Below, piece by piece: positions 19,171-40,160 of a DNA stretch of 64,000 bases (position 1 is the stretch's first letter; the number at the start of each line of letters is the position of its first letter). The notes beneath the pieces are model-generated. The model saw only the letters and a list, made by a program, of their open reading frames with translations. It was not told the DNA's origin and did no database searches. Source of the stretch: Parcubacteria group bacterium (lineage in GTDB: Bacteria > Patescibacteriota > Patescibacteriia > Buchananbacterales > UBA6539); contig NYZP01000001.1 of assembly GCA_002687175.1 (NCBI GenBank), positions 839 through 64,838 on the forward strand. The letters are read 5' to 3'. The translations under genes and the position numbers were made by a program.

Positions 19171-19962
19171 ATGGCATCAAAAAATAAAATTTCAATTGTA
19201 ATTGTTTCTTGGAAAGTTAAAGATTTGTTAAATAAATGTTTGACCTCTATCTTTACATATCAACAAAATCTAGATTTAGAAGTGATTGTGATCGATAACA
19301 ATTCAAATGATGGTACAGTCGACATGGTTAAAAATAATTTTCCCAAAGTATTGTTAATTAAAAACAAAAAAAATATTGGCTTTGCTAAAGCCAACAATCT
19401 AGGGATTGCCAAGGCCAATGGAAATTATATTTTAGTTTTAAATCCTGACACAGAAATTTTAAAAAATACCATTCAAGAAATGGTCAGCTTTATGGATAAA
19501 AATCCTCAGGCTGGTATTGTTGGTCCAAAACATTTAAACCCAGATAAAACAATCCAACCTTCAGTCAGACGATTCCCCAGTTTACTGGCTGTCTTTCTAA
19601 TACTTATTAAACTGCCTAAAGTCTTAAACTTAAAATCAGTGAATAAATTTTTGGCAACCGACGTCGACTATAATAATACTCAACCAGTTGATCAGGTCGC
19701 TGGCTCATTTATGTTTATTCGTCAAGAAGTATTAGCTAAAATTGGTAATTTTGATGAAAAATTTTTCATCTGGTTCGAAGATGTTGACCTGTGTAAAAGA
19801 GCTAAAAGTGCTGACTGGCAAATTTGGTATAACAATAAATCGCAAATTATTCATTATGGGGGACAAAGTTTTAAACAAAGATTAACTGTTAAAAAACAAC
19901 TACTTTTCTTTAAAAGTGCCTGGTACTATTTCAAAAAACACGGATTTATCTATAAAAATTGA
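19171..19962 (+). CDS. glycosyltransferase family 2
   Basis: ISIVIVSW...VIVIDNNSNDGT, DxD-like (NPDTE) and the FEDVDLCKR motif typical of GT2 rhamnosyl- and galactosyltransferases. Confidence 0.8.
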   Translation: MASKNKISIVIVSWKVKDLLNKCLTSIFTYQQNLDLEVIVIDNNSNDGTVDMVKNNFPKVLLIKNKKNIGFAKANNLGIAKANGNYILVLNPDTEILKNTIQEMVSFMDKNPQAGIVGPKHLNPDKTIQPSVRRFPSLLAVFLILIKLPKVLNLKSVNKFLATDVDYNNTQPVDQVAGSFMFIRQEVLAKIGNFDEKFFIWFEDVDLCKRAKSADWQIWYNNKSQIIHYGGQSFKQRLTVKKQLLFFKSAWYYFKKHGFIYKN

Positions 19963-20275
19963 TTTTTATAGCGATAAAGGTTACAATATAAATATCACTG
20001 TTAATCTGAACCAAAGCAAGGAGACCCTCCTATGAGAAATAGAATCTTCAACCTAAAGAAAGGACGGTGATTATCTCTTCTTACAGCTCTGCTGTGAGTC
20101 GTACCTTGTTGTTTAACTGATCTTTCCAACTTCAGTCACTATGACTGTTTGGCACAACAATAAGCATACTCACGAAGGGAGGGAGGGGAACAAGTGTCGA
20201 AAACATCGGAAGTTGAAACACCTCTAGTTGTAGTATAAATTGTGGAACAGACGACCAATGGAGGATACTCAAGCT

Positions 20276-20701
20276 ATGCGTAAGACATTGATGTTTATGT
20301 GTACCTGCGCCGTAGCGCTTGCATTCGTTGCCCTGACGGCTGAGGCAGAGATTATATCTGTCACGAACAAAACCGCTATCGGCGTAACCACAGCGCAGGA
20401 CGCATCGAACCCAGCCCTGACGGCAACCTCGTATTGCAAGACTACGGGAACGATGATTGCAGCTATGCAGACGCAGAGTCCAGCTTCGGACATAGATCTC
20501 TTGCAGCTCGACACGGTCGAGAATACCACGGCAGAACCTCGCGACGCGGTCCAAGAACAGGAGGTCAGTGGCTTCGCCGCGAACATGAGACCGGCGATGG
20601 CGGACAGCTTCTTGCATTCGGCGATGATGATGGCCGAGAACTTGACGGCGAATCCCGCGAACACGGTAAATGAGGTGAGTGGCTTCGCCGCGAACATATG
20701 A
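20276..20701 (+). CDS. small secreted Thr/Ala-rich protein in GC-rich island (141 aa, signal peptide)
   Basis: GGAGGA SD 10 nt upstream. MRKTLMFMCTCAVALAFVALTAEA|E is a signal peptide. About 57% GC against about 33% for the flanks. Contains an internal EVSGFAANM/I repeat. In frame within the track ORF at 20240. Confidence 0.45.
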   Translation: MRKTLMFMCTCAVALAFVALTAEAEIISVTNKTAIGVTTAQDASNPALTATSYCKTTGTMIAAMQTQSPASDIDLLQLDTVENTTAEPRDAVQEQEVSGFAANMRPAMADSFLHSAMMMAENLTANPANTVNEVSGFAANI

Positions 20702-20710
20702 GACCGGCGA
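20564..20710 (+). repeat. two copies of a ~34-bp direct repeat (gt[c/g]agtggcttcgccgcgaacat(at)gagaccggcga) 77 bp apart
   Basis: Read directly: copy 1 at 20564-20597, copy 2 at 20675-20710. The second copy spans the stop codon of the island ORF. Confidence 0.7.
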
Positions 20711-21093
20711 CTATCACTGCCGCCAATCACTTCGCGCTGAACTGGGTGTTCAGCCGTAATGGTAGCGCTTCTCGCGCACTTTCTTCGGCTCCAGTGGCTC
20801 TGTTTCCTGGTTGATGCGTGAATCGTATCACACGAGTCTCTGACTAGCCTAAGTAACATTACAATTTACCCCTTACGCAGACGTTGACCTCACGGTTCGA
20901 CCTGCGTCCTACATTCCCCCAGACTTCAATAACAGGACAGCTTAGCAGCAGCCCAAGTTAAAGATTTCTGAGGGGTCTTTTTTTTATGATTGACTTTTTG
21001 TAAAATAAATGATAGTTTCAAGCTTAGAAACTAAATGATCTTTAACTTTTCATCTTGATTGACATCTCACCGTCAGTGGAGGGAGAATTTTCA

Positions 21094-21348
21094 ATGATAA
21101 GCTTAATAAACATACAATGTCCTCATTGTAATGTGCAAAAAGCAATCCTGATACCGCCAATAGGTTCAATTCTCATTGGATTATGTAAAGATTGTAATGA
21201 CTCTATTGCTATCTTCGAGGGTCAAGCATTAGCACTAGACACACAAATCATACGAACTGCTGATATCGAAAATCGCAAAAAACATCTGTTAGAAATTTTG
21301 GACAGATTCCTCAAAGAAAGAATTTTCGCATTGATGCCAGATGAATAA
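21094..21348 (+). CDS. small zinc-ribbon protein (84 aa)
   Basis: SD GGAGGGAG lies 8 nt before the ATG. MISLINIQCPHCNVQKAILIPPIGSILIGLCKDCNDSIAIF... has CPHC...CKDC. The track ORF at 21055 is an upstream extension. Confidence 0.5.
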   Translation: MISLINIQCPHCNVQKAILIPPIGSILIGLCKDCNDSIAIFEGQALALDTQIIRTADIENRKKHLLEILDRFLKERIFALMPDE

Positions 21349-24369: not shown

Positions 24370-24430
24370 AGAATTAAGTTGCTCCTTGACTTTTAAAATA
24401 CCCCCTTACAACAAAGAAGGAGACATAGTA

Positions 24431-24601
24431 ATGGATAGCGTATTGATTGACAGCGGGTGGGATCTATTTTTGTTGTTTGCTATTTCATGGGTTGCAACAT
24501 TTCTGCTGGCTTTTGTAGTTATGGCAACCACTCATTTTTTCTTTGGCCCTTGGTTGAGAAGGCTACTGTTCAGAACTACTATCCAAGTAGCACTAAGCTA
24601 A
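24431..24601 (+). CDS. small hydrophobic peptide 1 (56 aa, 1 TM)
   Basis: SD AAGGAG lies 8 nt before the ATG. MDSVLIDSGWDLFLLFAISWVATFLLAFVVMATTHFFFGPWLRRLLFRTTIQVALS. Its stop overlaps the next SD (TAAGGAG). Confidence 0.55.
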   Translation: MDSVLIDSGWDLFLLFAISWVATFLLAFVVMATTHFFFGPWLRRLLFRTTIQVALS

Positions 24602-24611
24602 GGAGAATACA

Positions 24612-24701
24612 ATGGATATGTATTGGTGGGTTGTCATCCTTGGAATGGCTGGATTTATATTCCTTGGTGGTCTTTGGGAAAAATTCAAAAACCGCAAGTA
24701 G
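24612..24701 (+). CDS. small hydrophobic peptide 2 (29 aa, 1 TM)
   Basis: SD AAGGAG lies 6 nt before the ATG. MDMYWWVVILGMAGFIFLGGLWEKFKNRK. Confidence 0.5.
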   Translation: MDMYWWVVILGMAGFIFLGGLWEKFKNRK

Positions 24702-24712
24702 AAAGGATAATC

Positions 24713-24811
24713 ATGAAGTCGCTAGGTGAGATAATCGCCGTAGTATTAGCGGTTGGGTTTGTTACGTTATACGAATTTTTTCTAGCAATTAGGAAAATGA
24801 CAAACACGTAA
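24713..24811 (+). CDS. small hydrophobic peptide 3 (32 aa, 1 TM)
   Basis: GAAAGGA lies 5 nt before the ATG. MKSLGEIIAVVLAVGFVTLYEFFLAIRKMTNT. Confidence 0.45.
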   Translation: MKSLGEIIAVVLAVGFVTLYEFFLAIRKMTNT

Positions 24812-24832
24812 GACCATAGAAGGAGGTGGGTG

Positions 24833-25003
24833 ATGACTTTGTTAGAGTGGGGAATACTGATATTGGCCGCAATGTTTATCTGCAATATTGTGGCTACTGG
24901 CATGTTCGGTCGAATAACTGGTGTAAAAAGTGCTGCTGTTCTACTTTCGGTGGGAGCAATTTATTGCTTAATCTGCCTAGCCAGGGGTGATGAAGAAATA
25001 TAG
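24833..25003 (+). CDS. small hydrophobic peptide 4 (56 aa, 2 TM)
   Basis: SD GAAGGAGGTG precedes the start. MTLLEWGILILAAMFICNIVATGMFGRITGVKSAAVLLSVGAIYCLICLARGDEEI. Confidence 0.55.
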   Translation: MTLLEWGILILAAMFICNIVATGMFGRITGVKSAAVLLSVGAIYCLICLARGDEEI

Positions 25004-25017
25004 AAAGGAGGTGAATA

Positions 25018-25197
25018 ATGCCTTGGTACGGATGGGTGGTAATTGTTTGGTTTTCCATAAACACATGGTTAGCCGTAGATCAAGTAAGGAGTGATAGATT
25101 TAGTCTAAAAGAAACACCAATGGTGTTTTTGTTTGGCATACTGACTGTGGTTTGGTTCGTCATTGATTATATGGTTGAGCAAAGTAGGCGGATGTAA
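25018..25197 (+). CDS. small hydrophobic Trp-rich peptide 5 (59 aa, 2 TM)
   Basis: SD AAAGGAGGTG lies 4-6 nt before the ATG. MPWYGWVVIVWFSINTWLAVDQVRSDRFSLKETPMVFLFGILTVVWFVIDYMVEQSRRM. Confidence 0.55.
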   Translation: MPWYGWVVIVWFSINTWLAVDQVRSDRFSLKETPMVFLFGILTVVWFVIDYMVEQSRRM

Positions 25198-25302
25198 CCT
25201 AACACCGGTTACTGACTAAATTGCTCGTTCATTTCTCTTAGCTCAACACATTTGTGGGGAGCTTTTTTTTATATATTAAGTCTGTTATAATTTTAAAGAA
25301 CT

Positions 25303-25545
25303 ATGGAAGATTTTAAAAAAATTTTGGCCAATAAAAAAAGTATAAAACCGCCAGCTTATCAATGGCAATATTTAGCTTTGCGCATAATTGATGAACTAAA
25401 TATCCCAGCCAAGAAAAGAAACTCAGTCTTTCAAGTCTGTAAAAAATATCCTAAGGATTTTATTGAGAAATGTTTAAACGATACTAAAGAGCTGGCTCAA
25501 GAAGGGGAGCCGTGGCGATATTTTTTTAAATTAGTAAATAAATAA
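25303..25545 (+). CDS. hypothetical protein (80 aa)
   Basis: ORF-track entry with no recognisable motif. Followed by a hairpin at 25549-25568. Confidence 0.3.
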   Translation: MEDFKKILANKKSIKPPAYQWQYLALRIIDELNIPAKKRNSVFQVCKKYPKDFIEKCLNDTKELAQEGEPWRYFFKLVNK

Positions 25546-25548
25546 AAA

Positions 25549-25568
25549 AATCGTACTAAAACGATTTA
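25549..25568. terminator. hairpin AAATCGT-actaaa-ACGATTT, probable terminator for the - strand gene (T-run on - strand)
   Basis: Perfect 7-bp stem. The - strand reading is followed by TTTTTTTA. Confidence 0.4.
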
Positions 25569-25586
25569 AAAAATTATATCAATTTA

Positions 25587-26384
25587 TTACTGGAGTTTAA
25601 AATTACAAACTGTATAACCAACACCAAATGGTCCTTCGTAAGATAGCACTTCTGGTTCAATATTAAGTGATTCAATAATCCCTAATAAAATAATGATTGA
25701 CCGCAAGCCGCACTCGCCGGCTTCTTTTATTAAATTAGGATCCAGTTTTAAAATTCCTTGAATATCTTTCTTTTCAATTAACTCAACAATTTTTTTATCA
25801 AACACTGCACCTTGCTCCGAAAAACCACCGGGAGCATCTTTGGTTAATTTATGAGACAAATCAGCCGAACCAATCACCGCAAACCGTTTATTAATATTTG
25901 ATAGCTGTTGATATAAAAACTGGCCAAACTTAAAATGTTCTTCATAGCCTAAACCAGAGTAGGTGATGGGAATAATTTTAATATCCTTTAAATGCTGGGT
26001 AAAAAAATAAAGAGGGACGGAAAAACCGTAATCAATTTCTGATTCACTGGTTAACACCAAAGGAACCTGCTCGTGCTTTTCGTCACCAGCCCGAATCTGC
26101 TGAATTGACATGTAATCACTTTTAAATTTTAGTTCCAAACCAAAATCACCAAAATCTTTAAAGTTAGCCGAGTAATCAGCATTTAAATTAATATTAAAAG
26201 AATCATCCAAAATTTTACCATGAGGAGAAATGATTACAATGCTTTCCGGTTTGGCAGCATAAAACTCTTGCTCTAATTTCTTCATCGCCTCGTCGGTCTT
26301 GGAAATTTTGGCTAGATTGTCTTTACCAATCTCGGGAATCAAGACTGGCGGATGAGGAGTAATAGCAGAAAAAACTACAGGCAT
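25587..26384 (-). CDS. class III extradiol dioxygenase-like protein (LigB/YgiD family)
   Basis: MPVVFSAITPHPPVLIPE ... ISPHG ... GSADLSHKL are metal-binding His motifs arranged as in LigB-family catalytic subunits. Confidence 0.5.
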   Translation of the reverse strand: MPVVFSAITPHPPVLIPEIGKDNLAKISKTDEAMKKLEQEFYAAKPESIVIISPHGKILDDSFNINLNADYSANFKDFGDFGLELKFKSDYMSIQQIRAGDEKHEQVPLVLTSESEIDYGFSVPLYFFTQHLKDIKIIPITYSGLGYEEHFKFGQFLYQQLSNINKRFAVIGSADLSHKLTKDAPGGFSEQGAVFDKKIVELIEKKDIQGILKLDPNLIKEAGECGLRSIIILLGIIESLNIEPEVLSYEGPFGVGYTVCNFKLQ

Positions 26385-26390
26385 AAAAAT

Positions 26391-27752
26391 TTATTCAATG
26401 TCTTCACCTAGGGGGTGAATGTTAACGGCCAATTGGCTAGTTTCAATTATATTATCCCACTTGTATGCAAAATTGGCAAATGCTGATTCTGATTTAATCC
26501 AACGACGGAAACCATCCGAAATAACGTACACCTTAGAACCATCTTTAATTTTTATTAATTCACCATCTTCGAACTTGATTGGTAGACCAGTCAGGTATTG
26601 ATCAAGCTCTTCCGGACTAACTTGAGTTAACACCTTGCCTTTAAACTTAGCATCCATGATTTCCCGAGAATATATTGGATGTTTAACACCATCCTGAACA
26701 TGAAACACTCCACCACTTTGATCATCTTGAATTAAAGCACCGGTTGGATAGATACTTTCAACCGTAATTTCTACTCCATAGCTATAACCAGCTAAGTCAG
26801 CTTCGGTGACTTCAATGATTTCTTCGGGATTAAAACCAATTGTTCGAAAAACTTCTGGCGAGGAAATGTAACGTAAATCATCATCGACTAAAAGATACGT
26901 TTTGCCATCCGATAAACCTAAAATAGAATAGTTGTAAAATTGTATTGGCGAGCCATCTTCATATTTTTCTAAATCAGTTTGGGAAGTAGTGATAATTTTA
27001 TTAGGGTCAAACCGGGAAATAAAAACTCCCCAAGAAGTTACTAACCGTTTGGCACCATACTGAATCCACCAAACCGCCGGACTGTTATAGGATTTCAATA
27101 AAGAACCATCGGGATAGTCTCGTCCCCAGTAATTCTGCCAAATCTGCCAAAACCGATTGTTACCGTGATAGTGCGGCGTATAATTATAGAGATTGGCTGT
27201 CGCTTGATTAACTGGTTTAATATACCAGTCATCAATTAAAAATGTTTTATCTTTTTGATAAGTCCATTGAAAAGGGTTTTCAAAATATTGCCGAAGTTGC
27301 CAAGTAGCCCCATCAACTTGTTTACCAAAATCTAAAGTATTGGGATGACATGAACCGCTGTCCGGACAACGATAACCCATGGCTCGATCTAGACGCTTTT
27401 GAGTCGGGGAAGGGTCATCAATTAAACTTTGCTCTTTTTGCAAAGTGGCAATAATTACTTTCGGACTGATAAAACTTTCTTGAGCTGCTTGCCAAATTAT
27501 TTCCGAAGCCTTTTTATTGACCCCATTATAATCAGTAGTAATTAAATTAGCCAAACCACTATTACGCTGAATTAAAAATCCCTGAATGTCTTCCAAAGAC
27601 ATTGAAAGTTGATCAGTCATTTCTTCATCGGTAATCACAAAATGAGGATTAAAAAAATAGTCCTGCTCAGCGGCAACGACTGGCAAAAATGTCATCATTA
27701 AAAAACAGACACAACTTAGACTGAAAATTATCAATTTAGTAGTAGATATCAT
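26391..27752 (-). CDS. hypothetical secreted protein (signal peptide, 453 aa)
   Basis: N-terminal signal peptide (FLPVVAAEQDYFF). No recognisable catalytic motif. Confidence 0.45.
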   Translation of the reverse strand: MISTTKLIIFSLSCVCFLMMTFLPVVAAEQDYFFNPHFVITDEEMTDQLSMSLEDIQGFLIQRNSGLANLITTDYNGVNKKASEIIWQAAQESFISPKVIIATLQKEQSLIDDPSPTQKRLDRAMGYRCPDSGSCHPNTLDFGKQVDGATWQLRQYFENPFQWTYQKDKTFLIDDWYIKPVNQATANLYNYTPHYHGNNRFWQIWQNYWGRDYPDGSLLKSYNSPAVWWIQYGAKRLVTSWGVFISRFDPNKIITTSQTDLEKYEDGSPIQFYNYSILGLSDGKTYLLVDDDLRYISSPEVFRTIGFNPEEIIEVTEADLAGYSYGVEITVESIYPTGALIQDDQSGGVFHVQDGVKHPIYSREIMDAKFKGKVLTQVSPEELDQYLTGLPIKFEDGELIKIKDGSKVYVISDGFRRWIKSESAFANFAYKWDNIIETSQLAVNIHPLGEDIE

Positions 27753-27807
27753 AAGTTGATTATAACATTTTAAACTATGGTAGTTAAGTAAAATTTAACA
27801 AAGAAAA

Positions 27808-27838
27808 AAGGCGGTCACACTTTAGGTGAACGCCCATG
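27808..27838 (-). terminator. terminator of GC-rich two-gene cassette
   Basis: The - strand has a GGCGTTCAC...GTGACCGCC hairpin followed by TTTTTT. Confidence 0.45.
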
Positions 27839-27875
27839 ATTATAGATTTTGCCCTTTGAAGAAAAAGGCCTGGAC

Positions 27876-28061
27876 TTATTTGGGGATCCGTACTGATTTT
27901 CCCTGAGCATTTCTGATTTGAGCAAGTGCTTTGTCAGCACACTTCGGGCAATAGCCGTGACTAACACCAGGCCCTAAATCTTCCTTAGCTGCCAGAGACC
28001 ACGTAGCACTACCTTCGGGTCCTCGACGGATTTTTTTACAAACGCAACACTGCACTATCAT
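27876..28061 (-). CDS. small zinc-ribbon protein (61 aa) in GC-rich cassette
   Basis: MIVQCCVCKKIRRGPEGSATWSLAAKEDLGPGVSHGYCPKCADKALAQ... has CCVC...CPKC. About 50% GC. Start overlaps the upstream gene by 4 nt (ATGA). Confidence 0.5.
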   Translation of the reverse strand: MIVQCCVCKKIRRGPEGSATWSLAAKEDLGPGVSHGYCPKCADKALAQIRNAQGKSVRIPK

Positions 28062-28642
28062 GTATTAGTCTCTCCCTCCGATTGGCCGATAATTGAACGG
28101 CAGACCGGACAACAGCTGTGCTCCAAAAGCAAGGTAACAGTCTTGCCATTTAGCTGCTGCCAGGTTCCGTCTTGGCAAACTTTCTGACAACGACCGCAAA
28201 CCGGAACCAACTCTGGCTCTTGACCATCAGCGATCTCAGACGTCAGCTCGTCAACGTGCATTATGAACCAAACCCATGATCCTTGATCTAAGGAAAGTAC
28301 TGGAGTACCTGCCTCAATCTTGTCGGGATCTTCGGCCAGTACAGCACTTGAAAAAACAGCAATCTTCGTCTTGGGATCAAGTGCTTTCATTTGTTGAATC
28401 AACTGACTGCTACTGGCCAAATCGATAACGGTCAGATTAATAACCATTCGAAGCAGTCGCCACTGTTCGAAACAGTCACTTTGATCAACGGCCATCAGCA
28501 CATTAAAATGTGCTTCCGTCAGCTTTGACTCAAGCTGCTTGCGCATCTCTTCATCTTCGTGCAAGACCAACACAGTCCTGGGTTGGTTCCCTTCAAACAT
28601 TGTCCCTAGATCGTCTATTTCTGTGCATTGTTTCATGAGCAA
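28058..28642 (-). CDS. receiver (REC/CheY-like) domain protein with C-terminal Cys-rich zinc-ribbon-like region
   Basis: SD AAAGGAGG lies 8 nt before the ATG. The N-terminal region (VLVLHEDEEM...VIDLASSS...KIAVFSS...K) has the REC acidic pocket pattern. C-terminal VPVCGRCQ...SCCPVC. About 50% GC. Confidence 0.45.
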   Translation of the reverse strand: MLMKQCTEIDDLGTMFEGNQPRTVLVLHEDEEMRKQLESKLTEAHFNVLMAVDQSDCFEQWRLLRMVINLTVIDLASSSQLIQQMKALDPKTKIAVFSSAVLAEDPDKIEAGTPVLSLDQGSWVWFIMHVDELTSEIADGQEPELVPVCGRCQKVCQDGTWQQLNGKTVTLLLEHSCCPVCRSIIGQSEGETNT

Positions 28643-28756
28643 TGCCTCCTTTTTGGTTGTGGGTTAAAGCCACAATTTGAAAGGATAACATTGTTACAAA
28701 ATCTTGATGAGTCTATACAATATTTGTACAGACACCAGATAAAAAGAGCTTAAAAT

Positions 28757-28795
28757 AACCCCTCACGGGGTAAACCCCTTTGAGGGTTACTGTTA
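28757..28795. repeat. GC-rich nested stem-loop (AACCCCTCAC-GGGG-taaa-CCCC-TTTGAGGGTT)
   Basis: Read directly. It lies in the intergenic region between the REC-gene upstream region and the tagA promoter. Confidence 0.45.
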
Positions 28796-28885
28796 AATAA
28801 ATTAACACTTTGATAACTTTGTCAAGTAAGCAGTTGCTAAAAACACTTAAAATAGTTAGAATAAAAGCATTGTAACTAAAATAAT

Positions 28886-29662
28886 ATGGCTAAAGTTGAT
28901 ATTCTGGGTGTTCAAATTGATAACCTGTCTTTACAGGAAGTTTTAGAAAATATCAAACAATTTTTGAATTCTCGAAATCAACACTTTATTGTGACCCCTA
29001 ATCCAGAATTTTTAGTGGCCGCCAATAAAGATCAAAACTTTAAACAGATCTTAAATTATGCCGATATTGCAGTGGCCGACGGTATTGGACTTATCAAAGC
29101 TGCCAAATTTTTAGGTAAGAGATTGCAACGAGTTACTGGGGTTGATCTGGTTTGGGCAATATCAGAACTGGCCGCTGAAAAAAAATATCCAATCTATTTT
29201 TTAGGGGCTGATGAAATGATTGCCGCCCAAACTGCTGAATTTTTAAAACAAGAGTTTAATAAACTAAAAATTGCCGGCGCGGAAAGTGGCGGCGAGATTA
29301 TTAACCCCCAAACCCCTGACCAAGACTTGATCAAACGTATTCAAGAAGCCAGACCCAAAATTTTGTTTGTTGCTTTTGGTCAGGTTAAGCAAGAAAAATG
29401 GATTTTTGCTAATTTAGATAAATTTCCATCAGTCAAACTGGCGGTGGGAGTTGGCGGTGCTTTTGACTATATCTCTGGTGAAGTTAGTCGAGCTCCAAAA
29501 TTTTTACGCCAAGCCGGACTAGAATGGCTCTGGCGGTTAATTCAACAGCCTGCTAGATGGCGACGAATAATTAATGCTGTAATTATTTTCCCTTTATTAA
29601 TCCTGTTTCGAAAATATTTTCCGGAAAAGATGCCGGAAAATACCAACGAAGACACTGAATAA
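28886..29662 (+). CDS. WecB/TagA/CpsF-family glycosyltransferase (GT26)
   Basis: FIVTPNPEFLV ... ADIAVADGIGL ... FLGA...ILFVAFGQVKQEKW is the TagA/WecG pattern. Confidence 0.75.
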   Translation: MAKVDILGVQIDNLSLQEVLENIKQFLNSRNQHFIVTPNPEFLVAANKDQNFKQILNYADIAVADGIGLIKAAKFLGKRLQRVTGVDLVWAISELAAEKKYPIYFLGADEMIAAQTAEFLKQEFNKLKIAGAESGGEIINPQTPDQDLIKRIQEARPKILFVAFGQVKQEKWIFANLDKFPSVKLAVGVGGAFDYISGEVSRAPKFLRQAGLEWLWRLIQQPARWRRIINAVIIFPLLILFRKYFPEKMPENTNEDTE

Positions 29663-29671
29663 TAAAAAATA

Positions 29672-31090
29672 ATGTCTAAAAAAATTGTAACTCGTTTTGC
29701 TCCCAGTCCAACTGGTTTTTTACACGTCGGTAGTTTACGAACTGCCATGTATAATTTCCTTTTTGCTAAAGCCAACAAAGGAGATTTTTTATTACGGATT
29801 GAAGACACCGACCAAACCAGAAAAGTTAAAGGCGCTCAAGAAAGTTTACTAAAATCTCTAGAACAATTTAATCTAGACTGGGATAATAAAAAAATTATGG
29901 TCCAGTCAGAACGGCTGAAAGATTATCAAGCCGCAGCTGAGAAACTGGTCAAAGAAAAAAAAGCTTACAACTGTTTTTGTTCTAAAGAACGTTTAGATAA
30001 TTTACGGAAAGTCCGACAGCAAAAAGGTTTGCCACCAATGTACGATGGACATTGCACCAATTTACCAGACAAAGAAATTGACTTAACCAAAGACCACGTT
30101 ATTAGATTTAAAATGCCCAACTCTGGCCAAACTAAGTTTAATGATTTAATAAGAAATAAAGTTATTTTTGATAACAAACTTTTAGATGATCCAGTTATCT
30201 TAAAGTCAGATGGTTTTCCTACTTACCATTTAGCCTCGGTGGTTGATGATCATGAAATGAAAGTCAGCCATGTTATCAGAGGAGAGGAATGGCTGCCATC
30301 AACTCCTAAACATATTTTATTACACGAAGCCCTTGATTTTAAGGCACCAGAATTTGCCCATTTACCACTGCTGCTAAACGCAGACCGATCAAAGTTGTCT
30401 AAACGACAGGGTGATGTGGCAGTTGAAGACTTTTTAAAACAAGGTTACCTTGAAGAAGCTTTACTTAACTTTGTCTTACTGCTTGGCTGGAATCCAGGGA
30501 CTGATCAAGAAATTTTTAGTTTAGAAGAAATGATAAAAAGCTTTGATCTAAAAAAAGTTCACAAAGGTGGAGCGCTGTTTAATACCCAAAAGCTTGATTG
30601 GCTTAATGGAGAGTATATTAAACAAAAATCGTTACCAGAACTGACCAAACTCTGCCAACCATTTTTTGCAGCAGCTGGTATCAAAACTGACTTAAAACAA
30701 TTAGAAAAAGTGGTGGCCACTGAACAGCAAAGAATTAAAAAATTAAGTGATATTGTCGAGGGCAGTGAATTTTTCTTTAAGATGCCTAGCTACGATTCTA
30801 AACTACTTATTTGGAAAAAGGGGACTGTCAAAGATGCTACTGAGAATTTAAAGGTGTTATTAGAATTTTTAGATAACTTACCCGAAAACCAGTGGAATCA
30901 GCAAGATCTTGAAACGGCAATTAAAAAATTAATTGAAGAAAAAAAAATTGGAGTAGGGGATATGCTTTGGCCCATGCGGGTAGCCCTGACTGGCCGAAAA
31001 AATTCTCCCGGTCCATTTGAAGTGGCTGAAGCTTTAGGAAAAGAAGAAAGTTTAGCTAGAATTAAAAAAGCAATTGATTTATTAAGCTAA
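29672..31090 (+). CDS. gltX: glutamate--tRNA ligase
   Basis: HIGH-like motif (RFAPSPTGFLHVGSLRTAMYN) and KMSKS-like motif (KLSKRQG). Class I GluRS length. Confidence 0.9.
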   Translation: MSKKIVTRFAPSPTGFLHVGSLRTAMYNFLFAKANKGDFLLRIEDTDQTRKVKGAQESLLKSLEQFNLDWDNKKIMVQSERLKDYQAAAEKLVKEKKAYNCFCSKERLDNLRKVRQQKGLPPMYDGHCTNLPDKEIDLTKDHVIRFKMPNSGQTKFNDLIRNKVIFDNKLLDDPVILKSDGFPTYHLASVVDDHEMKVSHVIRGEEWLPSTPKHILLHEALDFKAPEFAHLPLLLNADRSKLSKRQGDVAVEDFLKQGYLEEALLNFVLLLGWNPGTDQEIFSLEEMIKSFDLKKVHKGGALFNTQKLDWLNGEYIKQKSLPELTKLCQPFFAAAGIKTDLKQLEKVVATEQQRIKKLSDIVEGSEFFFKMPSYDSKLLIWKKGTVKDATENLKVLLEFLDNLPENQWNQQDLETAIKKLIEEKKIGVGDMLWPMRVALTGRKNSPGPFEVAEALGKEESLARIKKAIDLLS

Positions 31091-31101
31091 ATTCGAATAG
31101 G

Positions 31102-31131
31102 GCATAACCAGGTTATGCGTGATTAATTTTT
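31102..31131 (+). terminator. terminator after gltX
   Basis: GCATAACC-a-GGTTATGC hairpin followed by a T-rich run. Confidence 0.5.
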
Positions 31132-31330
31132 AAAAATAAACTTGGTATTTTAGCTAAAAATAGATGGGTTCGTATAACCACTGTTATACGGCTCCACTTC
31201 GTTCCGCATACACTCTGTTTTCGTTTATGTGATAGTCCCTCCTGACGTCGGGACAATTATATCACAACTCTCAAACAGAGCGTCGTATAGCAAGGTACGT
31301 TGTGAGTACATATAGCTTGCTATTTGAAAT

Positions 31331-31358
31331 AAAAAAAGGCCGACTAATTTAGCCGGCT
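31331..31358 (-). terminator. terminator of - strand cassette gene
   Basis: On the - strand, GCCGGCTAA-at-TTAGTCGGC (one G.U pair) followed by TTTTTTT. Confidence 0.55.
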
Positions 31359-31652
31359 ACAACAAAGATCAAGGATAGTTCGTCGTTGCCAAGAACGCAT
31401 TCCTAAAAACTGATCACAAACTCTACAGAATTCTCCACCCCCCGTCGAAGAATCATGCCGGGGATGACTACAGGCATCTTGAAGTATGGCTAGTTTCTCG
31501 GTAAGGGGTCCCTTCTCCTCACGAAGTGACGTCTTCTTTTCCTTAGGTATTCCCTCCTCACTCAAGACAGCTTCAATTTGAGCTAGTCTAGTGGTGATGT
31601 TGGGAATTTCGTGTTCTACCTCTGCCATTGTTATTCTTTCTTCTTTAACCAT
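31344..31652 (-). CDS. hypothetical Cys-rich protein (102 aa) in GC-rich cassette
   Basis: On the - strand, TTGACA-17-TAGTAT promoter and AGGGAG SD 9 nt before the ATG. The C-terminal region CSHPRH...CRVCDQ...CCSRL is a putative metal-binding site. About 50% GC. Confidence 0.45.
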   Translation of the reverse strand: MVKEERITMAEVEHEIPNITTRLAQIEAVLSEEGIPKEKKTSLREEKGPLTEKLAILQDACSHPRHDSSTGGGEFCRVCDQFLGMRSWQRRTILDLCCSRLN

Positions 31653-31858
31653 GGCAAAATACTCCCTAGCTGTTCACTTACATTTACATTGTTAAATACT
31701 AAACATTATTAATAAAATTGTCAACATTAAAAAAATGAAGGTCAAGTCATACGTCTCACAACACCAGTTATCTGGTTCGCTCTCCCTCTCGCTGACGCTC
31801 TAGGTCGACCCAAATCTCTACCTTAAAATATAGTTCTGACCGTGTTATAATACAATAG

Positions 31859-36583: not shown

Positions 36584-37424
36584 TATATTCTAACTCTGAA
36601 GGATTCTTAACTTTTTCTCGTAATATATTAAGTAGTAATGTAGTTTGTTCATTGGCTGATCTATCAAGACGAAAACGTGCCTCCCAACCAGTCTCAGTAA
36701 TTAAAATAATCTCTTGTGGATGATCATTAGTAATATAGTTAAGGATTTTAAAATTAGCACGATCTTTTATCTCGTTGGTCAGTTCTACGATAAACTCAAC
36801 TTGTTTTGCTGATAAAACGTTCTGTCCAATTACTACTTCTTTATTCAAATGATGATGAATAATAGGATACTTACCACTACTTGATTCTGGTCTAATTAAT
36901 GTTGTCTCCCCTTCACCAGGCTGAATAATTAAATCATTCTCGGTTGCTTCTTTAAGCACTACACCATCTAAACCGATAAAATACCGCTTATCACTACTGA
37001 CCCAGACTAGATTAGCTATTTTTTCAGCTATAACAATTTCCAAACTATCAGGATAATTCTTGTTTATGCTAACGTTATCAAATGAGAGTGAATCCTCTAG
37101 CAAATTTTTCAAAGTACTTTTTTTAAGGAAAAGTAAATTATTTTGGCTAAAAAATAAAAATCTTCTTTTAGCTGTTTGCATGTCAACAATTTGTAAAATA
37201 TCATGCTGACTGATACTACTATTCCCTTTAACAGTAATATTCTCCAGCTGAAGTAAGCTGCTGGAGTTTAACAAATAAGATCCAATAATTATTAAAATAA
37301 TTAAAAATAATCTACGATATTTAAATCTCTTGGTTTTTTCAACTTTTTCTTTTTTGGGAAAAAAGGGATTCCTAAAATTCTTTTTCTGATAGTCTCTTTT
37401 TTGTCTCATAATTAACGATACCAA
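36546..37424 (-). CDS. ftsQ: cell division protein FtsQ/DivIB (POTRA)
   Basis: N-terminal basic region, a single TM, then the POTRA-like LENITVKGNSSISQHDILQIV. Located immediately downstream of ddl. Confidence 0.7.
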   Translation of the reverse strand: MVSLIMRQKRDYQKKNFRNPFFPKKEKVEKTKRFKYRRLFLIILIIIGSYLLNSSSLLQLENITVKGNSSISQHDILQIVDMQTAKRRFLFFSQNNLLFLKKSTLKNLLEDSLSFDNVSINKNYPDSLEIVIAEKIANLVWVSSDKRYFIGLDGVVLKEATENDLIIQPGEGETTLIRPESSSGKYPIIHHHLNKEVVIGQNVLSAKQVEFIVELTNEIKDRANFKILNYITNDHPQEIILITETGWEARFRLDRSANEQTTLLLNILREKVKNPSELEYIDLRFGEKVFFK

Positions 37425-38503
37425 ACCTCTTTTGGTTGATACTCAGTACTTAATTTATTTTTTTCGTCATAGCGTTCAATCGCCAAATCAATCAATTTTT
37501 CTAACAGCTTAGAATAAGCTAGTCCTGAGGCTTGCCACAACTTTGGATACATAGAAATTGAAGTAAAACCGGGAATGGTGTTAGCCTCATTTAAATAAAC
37601 CTTATGTCCTTTCTTAGTGACCAAAAAATCAATTCGTGCCATTCCGGACAAATTTAAAACTTTAAAGGCCTCTACGGCATAAACCTGAATCTGCTTTATC
37701 ACTTTATTTGGTAATTTAGCAGGTATCACCTCTTCGGAACTTCCATCAACATATTTAGCATCATAATCATAAAATTCATTTGACGAAATTATTTCACCAG
37801 GTACTGAAGTCTTGGGATTATCATTACCTAAAACGGCAATCTCAATTTCATGAGCATTATCAATCCCCTGCTCGACAATAACTTTAGTATCATACTTAAC
37901 CGCGTCATTAACTCCTAAAATTAGTTCTTTGTGATTGTGACATTTAGAAATTCCGACACTGGAACCTAGATTAGCCGGTTTAGCAAACATCGGAAATTTG
38001 AGCCCCCTGCCCTTGATCTGTTTTAATATCTTACTTTTATTATTTTTCCAATCTTTTGCTAAAAACCAATCGTACTTTACGCTGGGTATCTTAACTTGAT
38101 CACAGAGTTGCTTTTGAACCACTTTGTCCATGGCGACTGCTGATCCCAAAACTCCAGCCCCAACATAAGCAATATCTGCCATTTCCAACATTCCTTGAAC
38201 TGTACCATCCTCGCCATATGAACCATGCAGTACAGGAAAAACAACATCAAAACGTTTAAGTAAACTATCAGGAATTAATTCAGCACCTTTTTCTTTGATT
38301 TTTCCCGACTTCAAAGAGATAACTGGATTTGTGGTAATCCACTTACCATCTTTAGTAATGCCAATAGGAATTACTTGATACTTTTTTCTATCCAAAGCTT
38401 TCATTACTGATTGAGCAGAAACTATTGAAACTTCGTGCTCTCCTGATTTTCCACCAAAAATAACACCTACTTTAATCTTACTATTTTTACTTATTTTAGC
38501 CAT
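37412..38503 (-). CDS. ddl: D-alanine--D-alanine ligase
   Basis: KVGVIFGGKSGEHEVSIVSAQSV... and the ATP-grasp motifs (PVLHGSYGEDGTVQGMLE, FAKPANLGSSVGISK). Confidence 0.9.
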   Translation of the reverse strand: MAKISKNSKIKVGVIFGGKSGEHEVSIVSAQSVMKALDRKKYQVIPIGITKDGKWITTNPVISLKSGKIKEKGAELIPDSLLKRFDVVFPVLHGSYGEDGTVQGMLEMADIAYVGAGVLGSAVAMDKVVQKQLCDQVKIPSVKYDWFLAKDWKNNKSKILKQIKGRGLKFPMFAKPANLGSSVGISKCHNHKELILGVNDAVKYDTKVIVEQGIDNAHEIEIAVLGNDNPKTSVPGEIISSNEFYDYDAKYVDGSSEEVIPAKLPNKVIKQIQVYAVEAFKVLNLSGMARIDFLVTKKGHKVYLNEANTIPGFTSISMYPKLWQASGLAYSKLLEKLIDLAIERYDEKNKLSTEYQPKEVWYR

Positions 38504-38520
38504 TTTTATGTAATTACTGT

Positions 38521-39044
38521 TGACAATTATTAAATAGTGTGGTTAACCTACGATCATGCAAATGTGGTTAGTGAATACCGCCGAACAGGTATATACTACC
38601 ACATCAACCGCTCTACGGAGCACAAGGAGGACACAGCGCGAAGAAGAAGAGCACGGCGTCCGGTGCGACGACGAACATGGCCTTCTCCGGCGGGTAACGA
38701 CCCAGCCGGCGGCGCGGGGAGACGTTGCGGAAGAGCAACACAAAAATGGCAGTAAAGAGCGCTGGTGCACCAGCGCCGAAGACGAACGGCACCGGTTTTT
38801 TTCTACCGGAGCCACACAGGTAACACCTAGCTCGCGACGCGTTTCGGTCAAGTTGCTCCCACCCTCCGACCGTCGATCCGCTCAACGATTCGAAATTCGA
38901 CAGGTCGCTGGTTCCAGGGAAGATTACGAGCGCTCCTCCTGATTTCACGTAGGATTCGATGGCCGAAATGGATTCTTCGGCGTAGGAGTCGATATCCAAA
39001 GCGAGGACTACTGGATACGGAATCAGTTGGTCGGTGGGGCGGAT
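38521..39044. other. GC-rich (~58% GC) non-core island between ddl and alr; probable degraded foreign insert
   Basis: TTGACAAT at its left end and GGTCGGTGGGGCGGATTTATTTTTT at its right end. No ATG-initiated ORF with an SD. The track ORFs here start at TTG and have skewed R/A/P/G-rich composition. Confidence 0.4.
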
Positions 39045-40160
39045 TTATTTTTTATACACCCTTTCAAGCTCTGAATTTATTCTGGTTACTACTTCGTAAT
39101 TAATTGTTCTAAGTTTATCTGCCATTTCATCGGCAGTATTTTTTTTACCTACTAACTCAACTTCATCCCCTGCTTTAATACTTTTTATTTTAGAAACATC
39201 AATCATGGTTAAGTTCATGCATACACGTCCAATCACCGGACATTTCTTATTTTTAACAATAACCTCACCATTATTAGATAAATGCCGATCATACCCTTCC
39301 CAGTAACCAACTGCTATAACTGCCATTTTTAACCTTCTGGGGGCAGTGTAAGAGCAACCATAACCTACTTTAGTGCCTTTACTTATTATTTTAACTTGTA
39401 AAACTTTAGTCTTCCAGGTTAGTGCTGGTTCTAAACTTAACCAAGGATAATGTTTTAAAGCAATCTTCTCGGCTTGTTCTGAAGGCCATAATCCGTAAAG
39501 TGATAAACCCAACCTAATTAAATTAAAATGTGCTTGCGGTTCAACTAAACTGGCAGCGCTACATCCAAAATGCACTATTGGTATTTTTATTTTGTCATTC
39601 TGAACTTGTTTCAGAATCTGATTAAAGACTTTTAGTTGATATTTAGTATACCCTACATTTTCCTCAGAAGCGGCAAAGTGACTATAAATTCCTTCAATTT
39701 TTATATTTGGTAACTTATCAACTTGTTTAATAAACTCTACGGCATCTTTTACCAGAATGCCCACGCGAGTTGTGCCAGTGTCAATCTTAATATGCACTTT
39801 GGCAGTTTTTTTTAACTTCTTAGCAGTGCCTGATATTAATTTAGCATAACTTAAACTGTAAATTGGTAAATCAATATTTTGCTTAATTCCCTCTTTTAAA
39901 TAGCGACTTTGGGCATAACTCAAAACAAATATTCTTTTTTTAACATTGTGTTTTCTAAGTTCTAATGCTTCTCCTAAACTAACCACTCCTAGCCACTTTA
40001 CCTTGGGTAAAATCAGCTTTGTTACCTCAATCATGCCGTGTCCATAGGCGTTACTTTTGACGATAGGCATGACTTCAACGCCTTTACCAACAATTTTTTG
40101 GTATTGTTTTAGATTATATAAAATAGCAGATTTTGATATTTCAACCCAAGAATTGTACAT
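39045..40160 (-). CDS. alr: alanine racemase
   Basis: PLP-lysine motif VKSNAYGHG. C-terminal beta-domain with a conserved Y (GYWEGYDR). Confidence 0.9.
   Translation of the reverse strand: MYNSWVEISKSAILYNLKQYQKIVGKGVEVMPIVKSNAYGHGMIEVTKLILPKVKWLGVVSLGEALELRKHNVKKRIFVLSYAQSRYLKEGIKQNIDLPIYSLSYAKLISGTAKKLKKTAKVHIKIDTGTTRVGILVKDAVEFIKQVDKLPNIKIEGIYSHFAASEENVGYTKYQLKVFNQILKQVQNDKIKIPIVHFGCSAASLVEPQAHFNLIRLGLSLYGLWPSEQAEKIALKHYPWLSLEPALTWKTKVLQVKIISKGTKVGYGCSYTAPRRLKMAVIAVGYWEGYDRHLSNNGEVIVKNKKCPVIGRVCMNLTMIDVSKIKSIKAGDEVELVGKKNTADEMADKLRTINYEVVTRINSELERVYKK

What the first reader, a model, noticed from the sequence alone, without database searches (positions are those of the whole stretch)
27800..28800. 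GC-rich two-gene cassette: REC-domain protein with C-terminal zinc ribbon plus overlapping 61-aa zinc-ribbon protein, with its own SD and terminator
The - strand genes at 28642-28058 and 28061-27876 are about 50% GC in a ~33% GC context. They are preceded by AAAGGAGG and followed by a hairpin plus T6. Gene 1 has a CheY-like receiver pattern (acidic pocket HEDEE, VIDLASSS, KIAVFSS) but no DNA-binding output. Instead it ends in CGRCQ...SCCPVC. Gene 2 (CCVC...CPKC) overlaps it by ATGA. An orphan receiver coupled to zinc ribbons, with no kinase in the window, may be a horizontally acquired signalling or anti-sigma-like module. A conspicuous nested GC hairpin sits just upstream at 28757-28795 and may be a regulatory RNA element or attachment site.
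Basis: partly seen in the sequence, partly recalled or inferred. Interest (0 to 1): 0.5.

Follow-up and report, generated by a model that had tools for sequence, protein, structure and literature searches.

The report
Degenerate receiver protein with zinc-finger partner
A marine Parcubacteria genome carries a small two-gene unit: a worn-down response-regulator-like protein ending in a four-cysteine metal-binding module, and a free-standing copy of that module. Both belong to widespread families that no database describes; the finding is real but only moderately surprising.

Summary
Two minus-strand genes overlap by ATGA (192 aa at 28058-28636, 61 aa at 27876-28061). They have their own ribosome-binding sites and a hairpin-T6 terminator, and their GC is 47% against 36.6% for the window.

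Gene 1 is a sequence orphan: an exhaustive search of 1.84 billion proteins found no orthologue. It does align end to end (hhalign 94.5%) with an unnamed family of ~190-205 aa response regulators, receiver plus a C-terminal Cys4 module (LP[VI]CxxCKKIRDD…W…H..CPxC). Those genes lie directly downstream of histidine kinases in 9 of 9 loci tested.

The receiver of gene 1 is degenerate. It falls below the Pfam threshold, lacks the conserved Lys, has shortened loops, and no kinase lies in the 64 kb. It probably does not depend on phosphorylation.

Gene 2 is a typical member of a >600-member family of 50-90 aa stand-alone proteins (MxVQCCVCKK…W…SHGYCPxC), found mostly in Hydrogenedentota, Nitrospirales-labelled MAGs and Buchananbacteria. 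No Pfam, NCBIfam or PDB relative exists for it.

AlphaFold gives the module a treble-clef-like fold, not a classical zinc ribbon. I saw the pairing of fused and free modules only here.

Horizontal origin is plausible but unproven. The anti-sigma and att-site ideas have no support. Mechanism is inferred: a protein-protein signalling adaptor pair.

The parts
28058..28636 (-). Gene 1, 192 aa (P0001; NCBI CMI53_00190): receiver-like domain plus C-terminal Cys4 module. An alternative TTG start lies at 28642.
   Evidence: ORF list. Identical protein in public records. hhalign 94.5%, E 8e-8, collinear over residues 17-183 with the REC-Cys4 family profile.
28232..28588 (-). Receiver-like (CheY-like) region, residues ~17-135. 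It is degenerate: Asp73 sits at the phospho-acceptor position and Ser96 at the Thr position. H-E-D replaces the acidic pair, no Lys follows beta5, and the b3-a3 and b4-a4 loops are shortened.
   Evidence: Pfam Response_reg E 0.029, 15 bits, below cut-off. Several NCBIfam RR models at E 0.003-0.1. Exhaustive phmmer hit to the REC of a hybrid kinase at E 8e-4. Alignments. AF2 residues 20-62 at pLDDT ~90, superposing on PrrA, RssB and CheY at ~1.2 A over ~45 residues.
28088..28213 (-). Cys4 metal-binding module of gene 1, residues 142-183 (ELVPVCGRCQKV..DGTW..EHSCCPVC).
   Evidence: Aligns with gene 2 and its relatives with all eight key residues invariant. hhalign against the small family: 86.7%, E 4e-6. 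AF2 pLDDT 87-93, with the same strand-strand-strand-strand-helix order as gene 2.
27876..28061 (-). Gene 2, 61 aa (P0002; CMI53_00185): stand-alone Cys4 module of the MxVQCCVCKK...W...SHGYCPxC family.
   Evidence: Homologues P0003 and P0004 (E 9e-7 and 7e-5 against 5.8e9 proteins). Profile search gave 625 hits. 12 columns invariant over 120 sequences. AF2 pLDDT 81.7.
28645..28652 (-). Shine-Dalgarno AAAGGAGG of gene 1, 8 nt upstream of the ATG.
   Evidence: Read directly from the sequence.
28072..28079 (-). Shine-Dalgarno-like GGAGGGAG of gene 2, inside the 3' end of gene 1. Together with the ATGA overlap at 28058-28061 it suggests translational coupling (inferred).
   Evidence: Read directly from the sequence.
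27804..27835 (-). Intrinsic-terminator-like hairpin (GGGCG..CCGCC) followed by T6. A weaker hairpin at 27851-27869 precedes it.
   Evidence: RNA fold and sequence. The simple scanner did not list it.
28760..28786 (-). Nested G+C hairpin in the divergent intergenic region, ~125 nt upstream of gene 1, followed by a broken U-run. Its role is not established. It may be a 5'-leader structure, given a perfect TTGACA at 28820-28825.
   Evidence: Fold z = -3.5. Listed as terminator-like on the minus strand. No Rfam match. Unique in the window.

Best explanation
What it is. The cassette is one transcription unit encoding two proteins built around the same small Cys4 metal-binding module.

Gene 1. It is a highly diverged member of an unnamed but widespread family of ~190-205 aa response regulators. 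These have a CheY-like receiver, a ~20-residue linker and a C-terminal module LP[VI]CxxCKKIRDD...W...H..CPxC. In other bacteria they are the cognate regulators of PAS-type histidine kinases. In the window copy the receiver has decayed: no conserved Lys, H-E-D instead of the Asp pair, shortened active-site loops, and no kinase nearby. I infer that it is a pseudo-receiver working without phosphorylation, either constitutively or through another input.

Gene 2. It is an ordinary member of a separate, larger family of 50-90 aa proteins that consist of the module alone.

Inferred mechanism (not shown). The module binds one metal ion, most likely Zn, through its four invariant Cys. It then acts as a protein-protein interaction surface rather than a DNA-binding domain. 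The acidic receiver protein (pI 4.5, net -15) and the basic free module (pI 9.55, net +7) are made in fixed ratio by translational coupling. They would work together, either through module-module pairing or by competing for one target.

Origin. At least gene 1 was probably acquired horizontally by this AT-rich Parcubacteria lineage.
For: Identity of gene 1:
- hhalign against a 13-sequence REC-Cys4 profile gives 94.5%, E 8e-8, 163 collinear columns.
- BLASTP against the L026 protein gives E 1e-8 across both domains.
- Exhaustive phmmer gives only self plus the REC of a hybrid kinase (E 8e-4).
- Sub-threshold hits are consistently to response regulators.
- The confident part of the AF2 model superposes on receiver structures.

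The family is a genuine two-component output:
- Pfam Response_reg at ~1e-27 in canonical members, with nothing on the C-terminus.
- A HisKA+HATPase_c kinase lies immediately upstream in 9 of 9 loci tested.

Degeneracy of the window copy: alignments; no kinase-like ORF in 64 kb.

Gene 2 family; fold.

The two modules are homologous.

Protein-protein rather than DNA binding:
- Fused modules have pI 4.6-8.7, so they are not consistently basic.
- In L036, L040 and L041 the REC-Cys4 gene shares an operon with a DNA-binding REC-GerE regulator and a PilZ protein.

Coupling and independent unit: sequence, terminator, downstream promoter-like site.

Foreign origin: cassette GC 0.472 against 0.366, top 1.3% of windows. 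Gene 1 GC3 is 0.479 against a mean of 0.302.
Against: - The receiver assignment fails Pfam's threshold. On its own it reaches only 42% hhalign probability, covering beta1-beta4.
- The last third of the domain could not be modelled (pLDDT < 50), and Foldseek gave no hit at E <= 1e-3.
- Nothing shows metal binding, an interaction between the two products, or any target.
- The free module gene sits divergently next to an ABC-transporter operon in many genomes. That is the classic position of a transcription regulator. P0002 is also strongly basic.
- Gene 2's GC excess lies mostly at codon positions 1 and 2 (GC3 0.361, z 0.8), and its family occurs in other Parcubacteria. Horizontal transfer is therefore not demonstrated.
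- All population contigs are 100% identical, so purifying selection could not be tested.
Confidence: 0.55

Rival explanations
1. The Cys4 module is a nucleic-acid-binding output. Both proteins would be small transcription or RNA regulators, with the free form acting as a repressor or activator of neighbouring genes.
For: - In most Hydrogenedentota and Nitrospirales-labelled loci, and in L002, L119 and L120, the free module gene lies divergently upstream of a gldA/F/G-like ABC operon.
- P0002 has pI 9.55 and net charge +7. The small family has a median pI of 8.4.
- The modelled knuckle-hairpin-helix topology with a conserved Trp is what DNA-binding treble-clef fingers such as GATA have. That comparison rests on my own knowledge and was not tested.
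Against: - Fused modules are neutral to acidic (pI 4.6-8.7), and 43% of free members have pI below 8.
- In one sub-clade a DNA-binding REC-GerE regulator already sits in the same operon.
- There is no ABC operon next to the window's cassette.
- There is no similarity to any DNA-binding family in Pfam, NCBIfam or PDB.
Confidence: 0.2
2. The module is a rubredoxin-like Fe(Cys)4 or redox-sensitive centre. The proteins would sense oxygen, redox state or metal status rather than merely carrying a structural zinc.
For: - The CxxC ... CPxC knuckle pair is the rubredoxin-type arrangement (my own knowledge).
- The free family has two further invariant potential ligands, Cys6 and His35.
- Hosts are largely anaerobic or microaerophilic lineages.
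Against: - No rubredoxin or other Fe-S family hit, even at E <= 1.
- Cys6 and His35 are not conserved in the fused family, which shows CCVC, CSVC, CMYC or CGRC, and His replaced by Thr in L024 and L026.
- The modelled C-terminal helix is not a rubredoxin feature.
Confidence: 0.1
3. The cassette is a decaying leftover of a transferred two-component fragment, and gene 1 no longer has a function.
For: - Gene 1 has no orthologue among 1.84 billion representatives.
- It has lost the conserved Lys and loop residues.
- No kinase is nearby.
- GC is foreign.
Against: - Both reading frames are intact, with strong ribosome-binding sites, a coupled overlap and a terminator.
- All four Cys, the Trp and the linker Pro-Val-Cys are kept.
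- The same sequence recurs in several Tara and other marine samples.
Confidence: 0.1
4. The N-terminal domain of gene 1 is not receiver-derived. It would be another flavodoxin-like alpha/beta fold that only mimics the pattern.
For: - Pfam score is half the threshold.
- hhalign on the domain alone gives 42%.
- Foldseek gave no significant hit.
Against: - Every weak hit in four independent libraries is a response regulator.
- Length, domain order, linker and the Asp and Ser positions match the REC-Cys4 family.
Confidence: 0.05

Closest known systems
Unnamed REC-Cys4 response regulators (e.g. the proteins of L024 Desulfobacteraceae, L025 Nitrospinota and L026-L056 metagenomes)
   Same: Same length (~190-205 aa) and same order: receiver, linker, then ..LP[VI]CxxC.K[IV]..D(G).W...H..CPxC. 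Collinear profile match at 94.5%.
   Different: Canonical members pass Pfam Response_reg at ~1e-27, keep DD/D/T/K and follow a histidine kinase gene. The window protein scores 15 bits, lacks the Lys, has shortened loops, reads QKVCQD instead of KKIRDD, has no kinase nearby, and is followed by a free module gene instead.
Stand-alone MxVQCCVCKK...SHGYCPxC small proteins (Hydrogenedentota, Nitrospirales-labelled MAGs, Cand. Buchananbacteria; all annotated 'hypothetical')
   Same: Gene 2 has all 12 invariant residues, the same length and the start exactly four residues before the first Cys.
   Different: Elsewhere the gene stands alone. It usually lies between a divergent gldA/F/G-like ABC operon and a convergent groESL. 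Here it is translationally coupled to a receiver-like gene.
Atypical or pseudo-receiver proteins (e.g. CikA pseudo-receiver, NblR, HP1043-type regulators; from established knowledge)
   Same: A receiver-like fold with incomplete phosphorylation-site residues and no cognate kinase. NblR was the best NCBIfam hit and the CikA pseudo-receiver appeared among the PDB hits.
   Different: There is no sequence relationship beyond the general receiver fold, and the output module is different.
Treble-clef zinc fingers (ZAD, PHD, eL34, CsfB/Gin anti-sigma-G)
Pfam DUF2197 (YlaI-like small Cys proteins)
   Same: It is the most recurrent weak Pfam match of the small family, and one member is labelled YlaI by JGI.
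   Different: Only 7 of 120 members match, with a best E of 0.0015. Gene 2 itself does not match. The function of DUF2197 is also unknown.

Membership tests
CheY-like receiver domain (Pfam PF00072 Response_reg) | Score at or above the Pfam gathering threshold | tested here: not met
   15.0 bits, E 0.029, against a cut-off of 30.2; residues 24-100 only.
CheY-like receiver domain (Pfam PF00072 Response_reg) | (beta-alpha)5 fold | tested here: inconclusive
   AF2 gives b1-a1-b2-a2 at pLDDT ~90 and a3-b4 at lower confidence; residues 96-136 are below 50. Foldseek finds no hit at E <= 1e-3, only ~45-residue matches to receivers at ~1.2 A.
CheY-like receiver domain (Pfam PF00072 Response_reg) | Phospho-acceptor Asp at the end of beta3 | tested here: met
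   Asp73 (VIDL) aligns with the Asp of canonical members in both MAFFT and hhalign.
CheY-like receiver domain (Pfam PF00072 Response_reg) | Acidic pair after beta1 (Asp12/Asp13 of CheY) | tested here: inconclusive
   His26-Glu27-Asp28 aligns with Asp-Asp-Asp. The first Asp is replaced by His and the second by Glu.
CheY-like receiver domain (Pfam PF00072 Response_reg) | Thr/Ser at the end of beta4 | tested here: met
   Ser96 aligns with the conserved Thr.
CheY-like receiver domain (Pfam PF00072 Response_reg) | Conserved Lys after beta5 (Lys109 of CheY), usually Lys-Pro | tested here: not met
   The aligned residues are Ser/Leu. There is no Lys between residues 107 and 151 (sequence).
Two-component system (kinase plus regulator pair) | Cognate histidine kinase gene adjacent or nearby | tested here: not met
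   A local HMM of seven kinase cores searched against all window ORFs gave a best E of 0.39. The rest of the genome could not be searched.
Unnamed REC-Cys4 response regulators | Collinear full-length match: receiver, linker, ..P[VI]CxxC..W..CPxC | tested here: met
   hhalign 94.5%, E 8e-8, residues 17-183 against profile columns 8-191. BLASTP E 1e-8 to the L026 protein.
Unnamed REC-Cys4 response regulators | KKIRDD signature after the first CxxC | tested here: not met
   The window has C-Q-K-V-C-Q-D. Only the second Lys, the aliphatic residue and one Asp are kept.
Stand-alone Cys4 small-protein family (gene 2) | The 12 invariant residues M1 Q4 C5 C6 C8 W21 S34 H35 Y37 C38 P39 C41, and a length of 50-90 aa | tested here: met
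   Alignment of 120 members including P0002. Independent phmmer hits P0003 at E 9e-7 and P0004 at E 7e-5.
Classical zinc ribbon (two knuckles on a three-stranded sheet, no helix) | Fold | tested here: inconclusive
Metal-binding Cys4 site | Bound Zn (or Fe) coordinated by the four Cys | not testable with these tools
   Inferred only. C..C and CP.C are invariant across both families, apart from the Nitrospinota sub-clade (L025, L027-L031), where the second pair reads C[DE]xH.
ZAS-type anti-sigma factors | HxxxCxxC motif and an adjacent sigma-factor gene | tested here: not met
   The spacing is HxxCxxC. The His is replaced by Thr in fused members L024 and L026. The neighbours are LigB/Memo-like, an unknown 453-aa protein, WecG and GluRS.
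Pfam DUF2197 (YlaI) | Significant match to PF09963 | tested here: not met
   P0002 has no match at E <= 1. Only 7 of 120 relatives match, with a best E of 0.0015.

The most novel reading that the evidence does not exclude
The Cys4 module would be a previously undescribed, widespread signalling domain. It would serve as an output of PAS-kinase two-component systems when fused to a receiver, and as a free small protein elsewhere. The two forms would work through homotypic module-module contact. The window's coupled pair would then be the first natural case showing the fused and free forms as direct partners. That would be a new response-regulator output logic in which the regulator sequesters or releases a small zinc protein.
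Probability: 0.15. Interest if true: 0.65.

Novelty: new variant of a known kind. Interest (0 to 1): 0.4.

Why it matters
Most response-regulator outputs are catalogued. This ~40-residue Cys4 module has no Pfam or NCBIfam model and no solved structure, and I found no paper on it. Yet it is attached to receivers downstream of histidine kinases in several phyla, and it also exists as more than 600 free-standing small proteins. The window's cassette is the only place seen here where both forms sit together. That makes it a natural starting point for testing what the module binds.

For Parcubacteria biology the finding is a minor point. It shows a probably imported signalling fragment, without its kinase, kept in a very reduced genome.

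Tried and rejected
- **Word-indexed homologue search with gene 1:** returned only itself.
- **Exhaustive phmmer:** the second hit, P0005, is a chance match of 'GKTVTLLLEHSC' to a repeat protein and not a zinc module.
- **AF2 for gene 1 with the real REC-Cys4 relatives:** The substitute alignment was too shallow for the receiver's last third.
- **Fold search against afdb50:** not available.
- **PDB profile searches:** only ribosomal eL42 knuckles at E ~0.1.
- **PADLOC and PHROGs:** no hits, so no sign of a defence or phage function. Only 3 viral contigs carry small homologues.
- **tblastn against plasmids:** one irrelevant hit between IS elements.
- **Rfam, tRNA and repeat searches around the cassette and hairpin:** nothing. 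There are no flanking direct or inverted repeats that would mark a mobile element.
- **Selection test:** impossible, because all 7 population contigs are 100% identical.
- **Presence/absence polymorphism:** every contig with the neighbouring WecG gene carries the cassette.
- **Literature searches:** the motif, 'zinc ribbon' plus response regulator, DUF2197/YlaI and related terms gave nothing relevant.
- **An untested recollection:** I remember the same module at the C-terminus of PAS-only proteins.
Full report
**1. Observation**

The minus strand carries two ORFs, at 28058..28642 and 27876..28061. NCBI annotates the same proteins as hypothetical proteins CMI53_00190 (192 aa, from the ATG at 28636) and CMI53_00185 (61 aa) of a marine 'Parcubacteria group bacterium' MAG.

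- The stop of gene 1 and the start of gene 2 share ATGA at 28058-28061.
- AAAGGAGG lies 8 nt before the gene 1 ATG, and GGAGGGAG lies ahead of gene 2.
- A hairpin plus T6 at 27804-27835 follows gene 2.
- The next gene has its own promoter-like site, so the pair is a self-contained unit.

The cassette GC is 0.472 against 0.366 for the window, and only 1.3% of equal-sized windows reach it. The rise and fall coincide with the coding region at about 27800 and 28650. The upstream hairpin (core 28760-28786) folds far better than shuffles (z = -3.5).

**2. Gene 2 and the metal module**

Gene 2 has clear relatives.

- P0003 (49% identity) and P0004 (Cand. Buchananbacteria, 43%) came from the first search.
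- A genome scan found 19 more small genes, in Hydrogenedentota, in MAGs labelled Nitrospirales and in Buchananbacteria, plus three loci that encode the module fused to a receiver.
- A profile search gave 625 proteins at E <= 0.01. The best 120 are all 49-92 aa, have no Pfam domain and are called 'hypothetical'.

Twelve positions are invariant over these 120: M1 Q4 C5 C6 C8 W21 S34 H35 Y37 C38 P39 C41.

With this alignment AlphaFold2 gives a confident model (pLDDT 81.7). It has four short strands and a 15-residue helix that begins at the CPxC pair. That is a treble-clef-like arrangement, not a classical zinc ribbon.

The module has no recognised relative:

- PDB profile searches find nothing.
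- Pfam shows only a weak, recurrent match to DUF2197/YlaI, in 7 of 120 members.

The C-terminus of gene 1 aligns with gene 2 and its relatives. C, C, K, W, H, C, P and C are all invariant, and hhalign gives 86.7%, E 4e-6. The two genes therefore carry paralogous modules.

**3. Gene 1**

The word-indexed search and an exhaustive phmmer against 1.84 billion representatives found no orthologue. The only meaningful hit was the C-terminal receiver of a hybrid histidine kinase (residues 8-108, 34% identity, E 8e-4). A second hit was a chance repeat match. Pfam Response_reg scores 15 bits against a cut-off of 30.2. Several NCBIfam regulator models and PDB regulators appear at E 0.003-0.7.

The decisive lead came from the genome scan. 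Three loci (L024 Desulfobacteraceae, L025 Nitrospinota, L026) encode 192-216 aa proteins with a canonical receiver followed by ..LIPVCCVCKKIRDD...W...(S/T)(H/T)xYC... A metagenome scan added about 20 more.

- Their receivers pass Pfam at ~1e-27, while nothing in Pfam or NCBIfam covers the C-terminus.
- Gene 1 aligns with a 13-member profile of this family over 163 collinear columns (residues 17-183): probability 94.5%, E 8e-8.
- BLASTP against the L026 protein spans both domains at E 1e-8.
- The receiver part alone reaches only 42%, E 2.7e-4, over beta1-beta4.

AlphaFold2 with a necessarily shallow alignment modelled residues 20-62 at pLDDT ~90 and the Cys4 module at 87-93. Residues 96-136 stayed below 50. 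Foldseek gave no significant hit. It did give many ~45-residue superpositions at ~1.2 A on PrrA, RssB, PhoP, CheY and the CikA pseudo-receiver.

I conclude, at about 85-90%, that gene 1 is a diverged member of this REC-Cys4 family.

**4. State of the receiver**

In both MAFFT and hhalign alignments:

- Asp73 sits at the phospho-acceptor position and Ser96 at the Thr position.
- The acidic pair is His-Glu(-Asp).
- The beta3-alpha3 loop is 4 residues shorter and the beta4-alpha4 loop 3 residues shorter.
- The conserved Lys-Pro after beta5 is Ser/Leu, with no Lys nearby.

A local HMM of kinase cores found no kinase-like ORF in the 64-kb window (best E 0.39). From established knowledge of receiver chemistry, loss of that Lys usually abolishes normal phosphorylation-driven switching. 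I therefore infer a pseudo-receiver.

**5. What the family does elsewhere**

In 9 of 9 loci tested, a HisKA+HATPase_c kinase, mostly with PAS or CHASE sensors, lies immediately upstream of the REC-Cys4 gene. One locus (L032) has two REC-Cys4 genes in tandem.

A sub-clade has the module ending SHGCCPEC, the closest to the HSCCPVC of gene 1. It sits in operons ordered PAS-kinase, REC-GerE, REC-Cys4, PilZ (L036, L040, L041). The module is therefore a genuine two-component output. In that sub-clade it forms a branch parallel to a DNA-binding regulator.

Fused modules have pI 4.6-8.7, so they are not consistently basic. Together these points favour protein-protein interaction over DNA binding.

The free-standing genes usually lie between a divergent gldA/F/G-like ABC operon and a convergent groESL. 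That position keeps a regulator-of-neighbour reading alive as the main rival.

None of about 26 free-gene loci has a receiver gene or a second module gene beside it. None of about 20 fused-gene loci has a free module gene. Among the loci examined, the window's pairing is unique.

**6. Mechanism (inferred)**

Four invariant Cys bind one metal, most likely Zn; rubredoxin-like Fe is not excluded. The receiver-like domain, now probably uncoupled from phosphorylation, presents or masks its module. The coupled free module would either pair with it or compete for the same partner. It is basic (pI 9.55, net +7), against the acidic gene 1 product (pI 4.5, net -15). No step of this has been shown.

**7. 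Origin**

Gene 1 has foreign-looking synonymous sites (GC3 0.479 against 0.302 +/- 0.073). Gene 2 does not (GC3 0.361); its GC excess is at codon positions 1 and 2. The gene 2 family also exists in other Parcubacteria (L001, L014, L022).

No repeats, tRNA or integrase flank the unit. Every contig of the population carries it, and these contigs are 100% identical. Horizontal acquisition is plausible, above all for gene 1, but it is not demonstrated.

The window holds other G+C islands at 19.9-21.2 kb, 38.3-39.4 kb and 47.4-48.2 kb, so the cassette is not unique in this respect.

**8. The hairpin**

It lies in the divergent intergenic region, outside the G+C island. It has no Rfam match and no second copy. 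On the minus strand it is followed by a broken U-run, and a perfect TTGACA lies about 35 nt upstream of it. A 5'-leader or attenuator role is possible. An attachment-site role has no support.

**9. Verdict**

- It is a degenerate member of an undescribed REC-Cys4 response-regulator family, plus a stand-alone paralogue.
- It is not demonstrably anti-sigma-like.
- It is not demonstrably a recent transfer.

Novelty: a new variant of a known kind, a response regulator with an uncatalogued output. Interest 0.4.

Noticed in passing
window 19911-21238 (core 20130-20960): This is the strongest G+C island of the window; the ORF frame 20272-20859 has GC 0.55. The plus-strand ORF 20240/20277-20701 has a signal-peptide-like start and a repeated EVSGFAANM/I motif. 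Long antisense ORFs overlap it. There is no Rfam match even at E <= 1.
   Followed up: partly
window 38510-39040: A G+C-rich ~530-bp stretch lies between a D-Ala-D-Ala-ligase-like gene (37412-38503) and an alanine-racemase-like gene (39045-40160); both names are by eye from the translations. Only overlapping ORFs in several frames cover it, which looks like a structured RNA or a foreign insert. No Rfam family matches (best E 0.76).
   Followed up: partly
window 31344-31652 (-): A 102-aa ORF with GC 0.45, a coiled-coil-like N-terminus and a CSHPRH...CRVC motif. It is called as a gene on all population contigs. It has no significant Pfam, NCBIfam, PADLOC or PHROGs family.
   Followed up: partly
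window 21055-21348 (+): A small AT-rich ORF with a CPHC...CKDC pair, another possible zinc-binding mini-protein unrelated to the cassette.
   Followed up: no
window 24386-25200 (+): A run of short hydrophobic ORFs with an unusually strong GC skew (+0.38) and GC ~0.41.
   Followed up: no
L036 3575-4099, L040 2756-3148, L041 3591-3980: In one sub-clade of REC-Cys4 regulators a PilZ-domain gene follows immediately. A PAS-kinase (Pfam-tested in L041) and a REC-GerE regulator (L036, L040, L041) precede it. This is a branched two-component operon with a possible c-di-GMP link.
   Followed up: partly
L026 343-921 and L046 1775-2347: These otherwise canonical REC-Cys4 proteins have Glu instead of the phospho-acceptor Asp (ITEVLM), a natural phosphomimetic-like substitution. 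An NtrC-type regulator lies divergently upstream in L046.
   Followed up: no
L005-L023, L002, L119-L121: The free Cys4 gene keeps a conserved position between a divergent ABC_tran/ABC2_membrane/ABC_transp_aux (gldA/F/G-like) operon and a convergent groESL, across Hydrogenedentota and MAGs labelled Nitrospirales.
   Followed up: partly
L114 2938-3162, L115, L116 2992-3165: Three IMG/VR viral contigs encode small homologues of the free module. In L114 a 165-aa ORF two genes downstream looks, by eye only, like a sigma-70 region-2 protein.
   Followed up: no
L107-L113, L117, L118 against window 25000-31700: Contigs from different marine samples (Tara and others) are 100% identical to the window over up to 5960 bp, so the population looks clonal at this locus.
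   Followed up: yes
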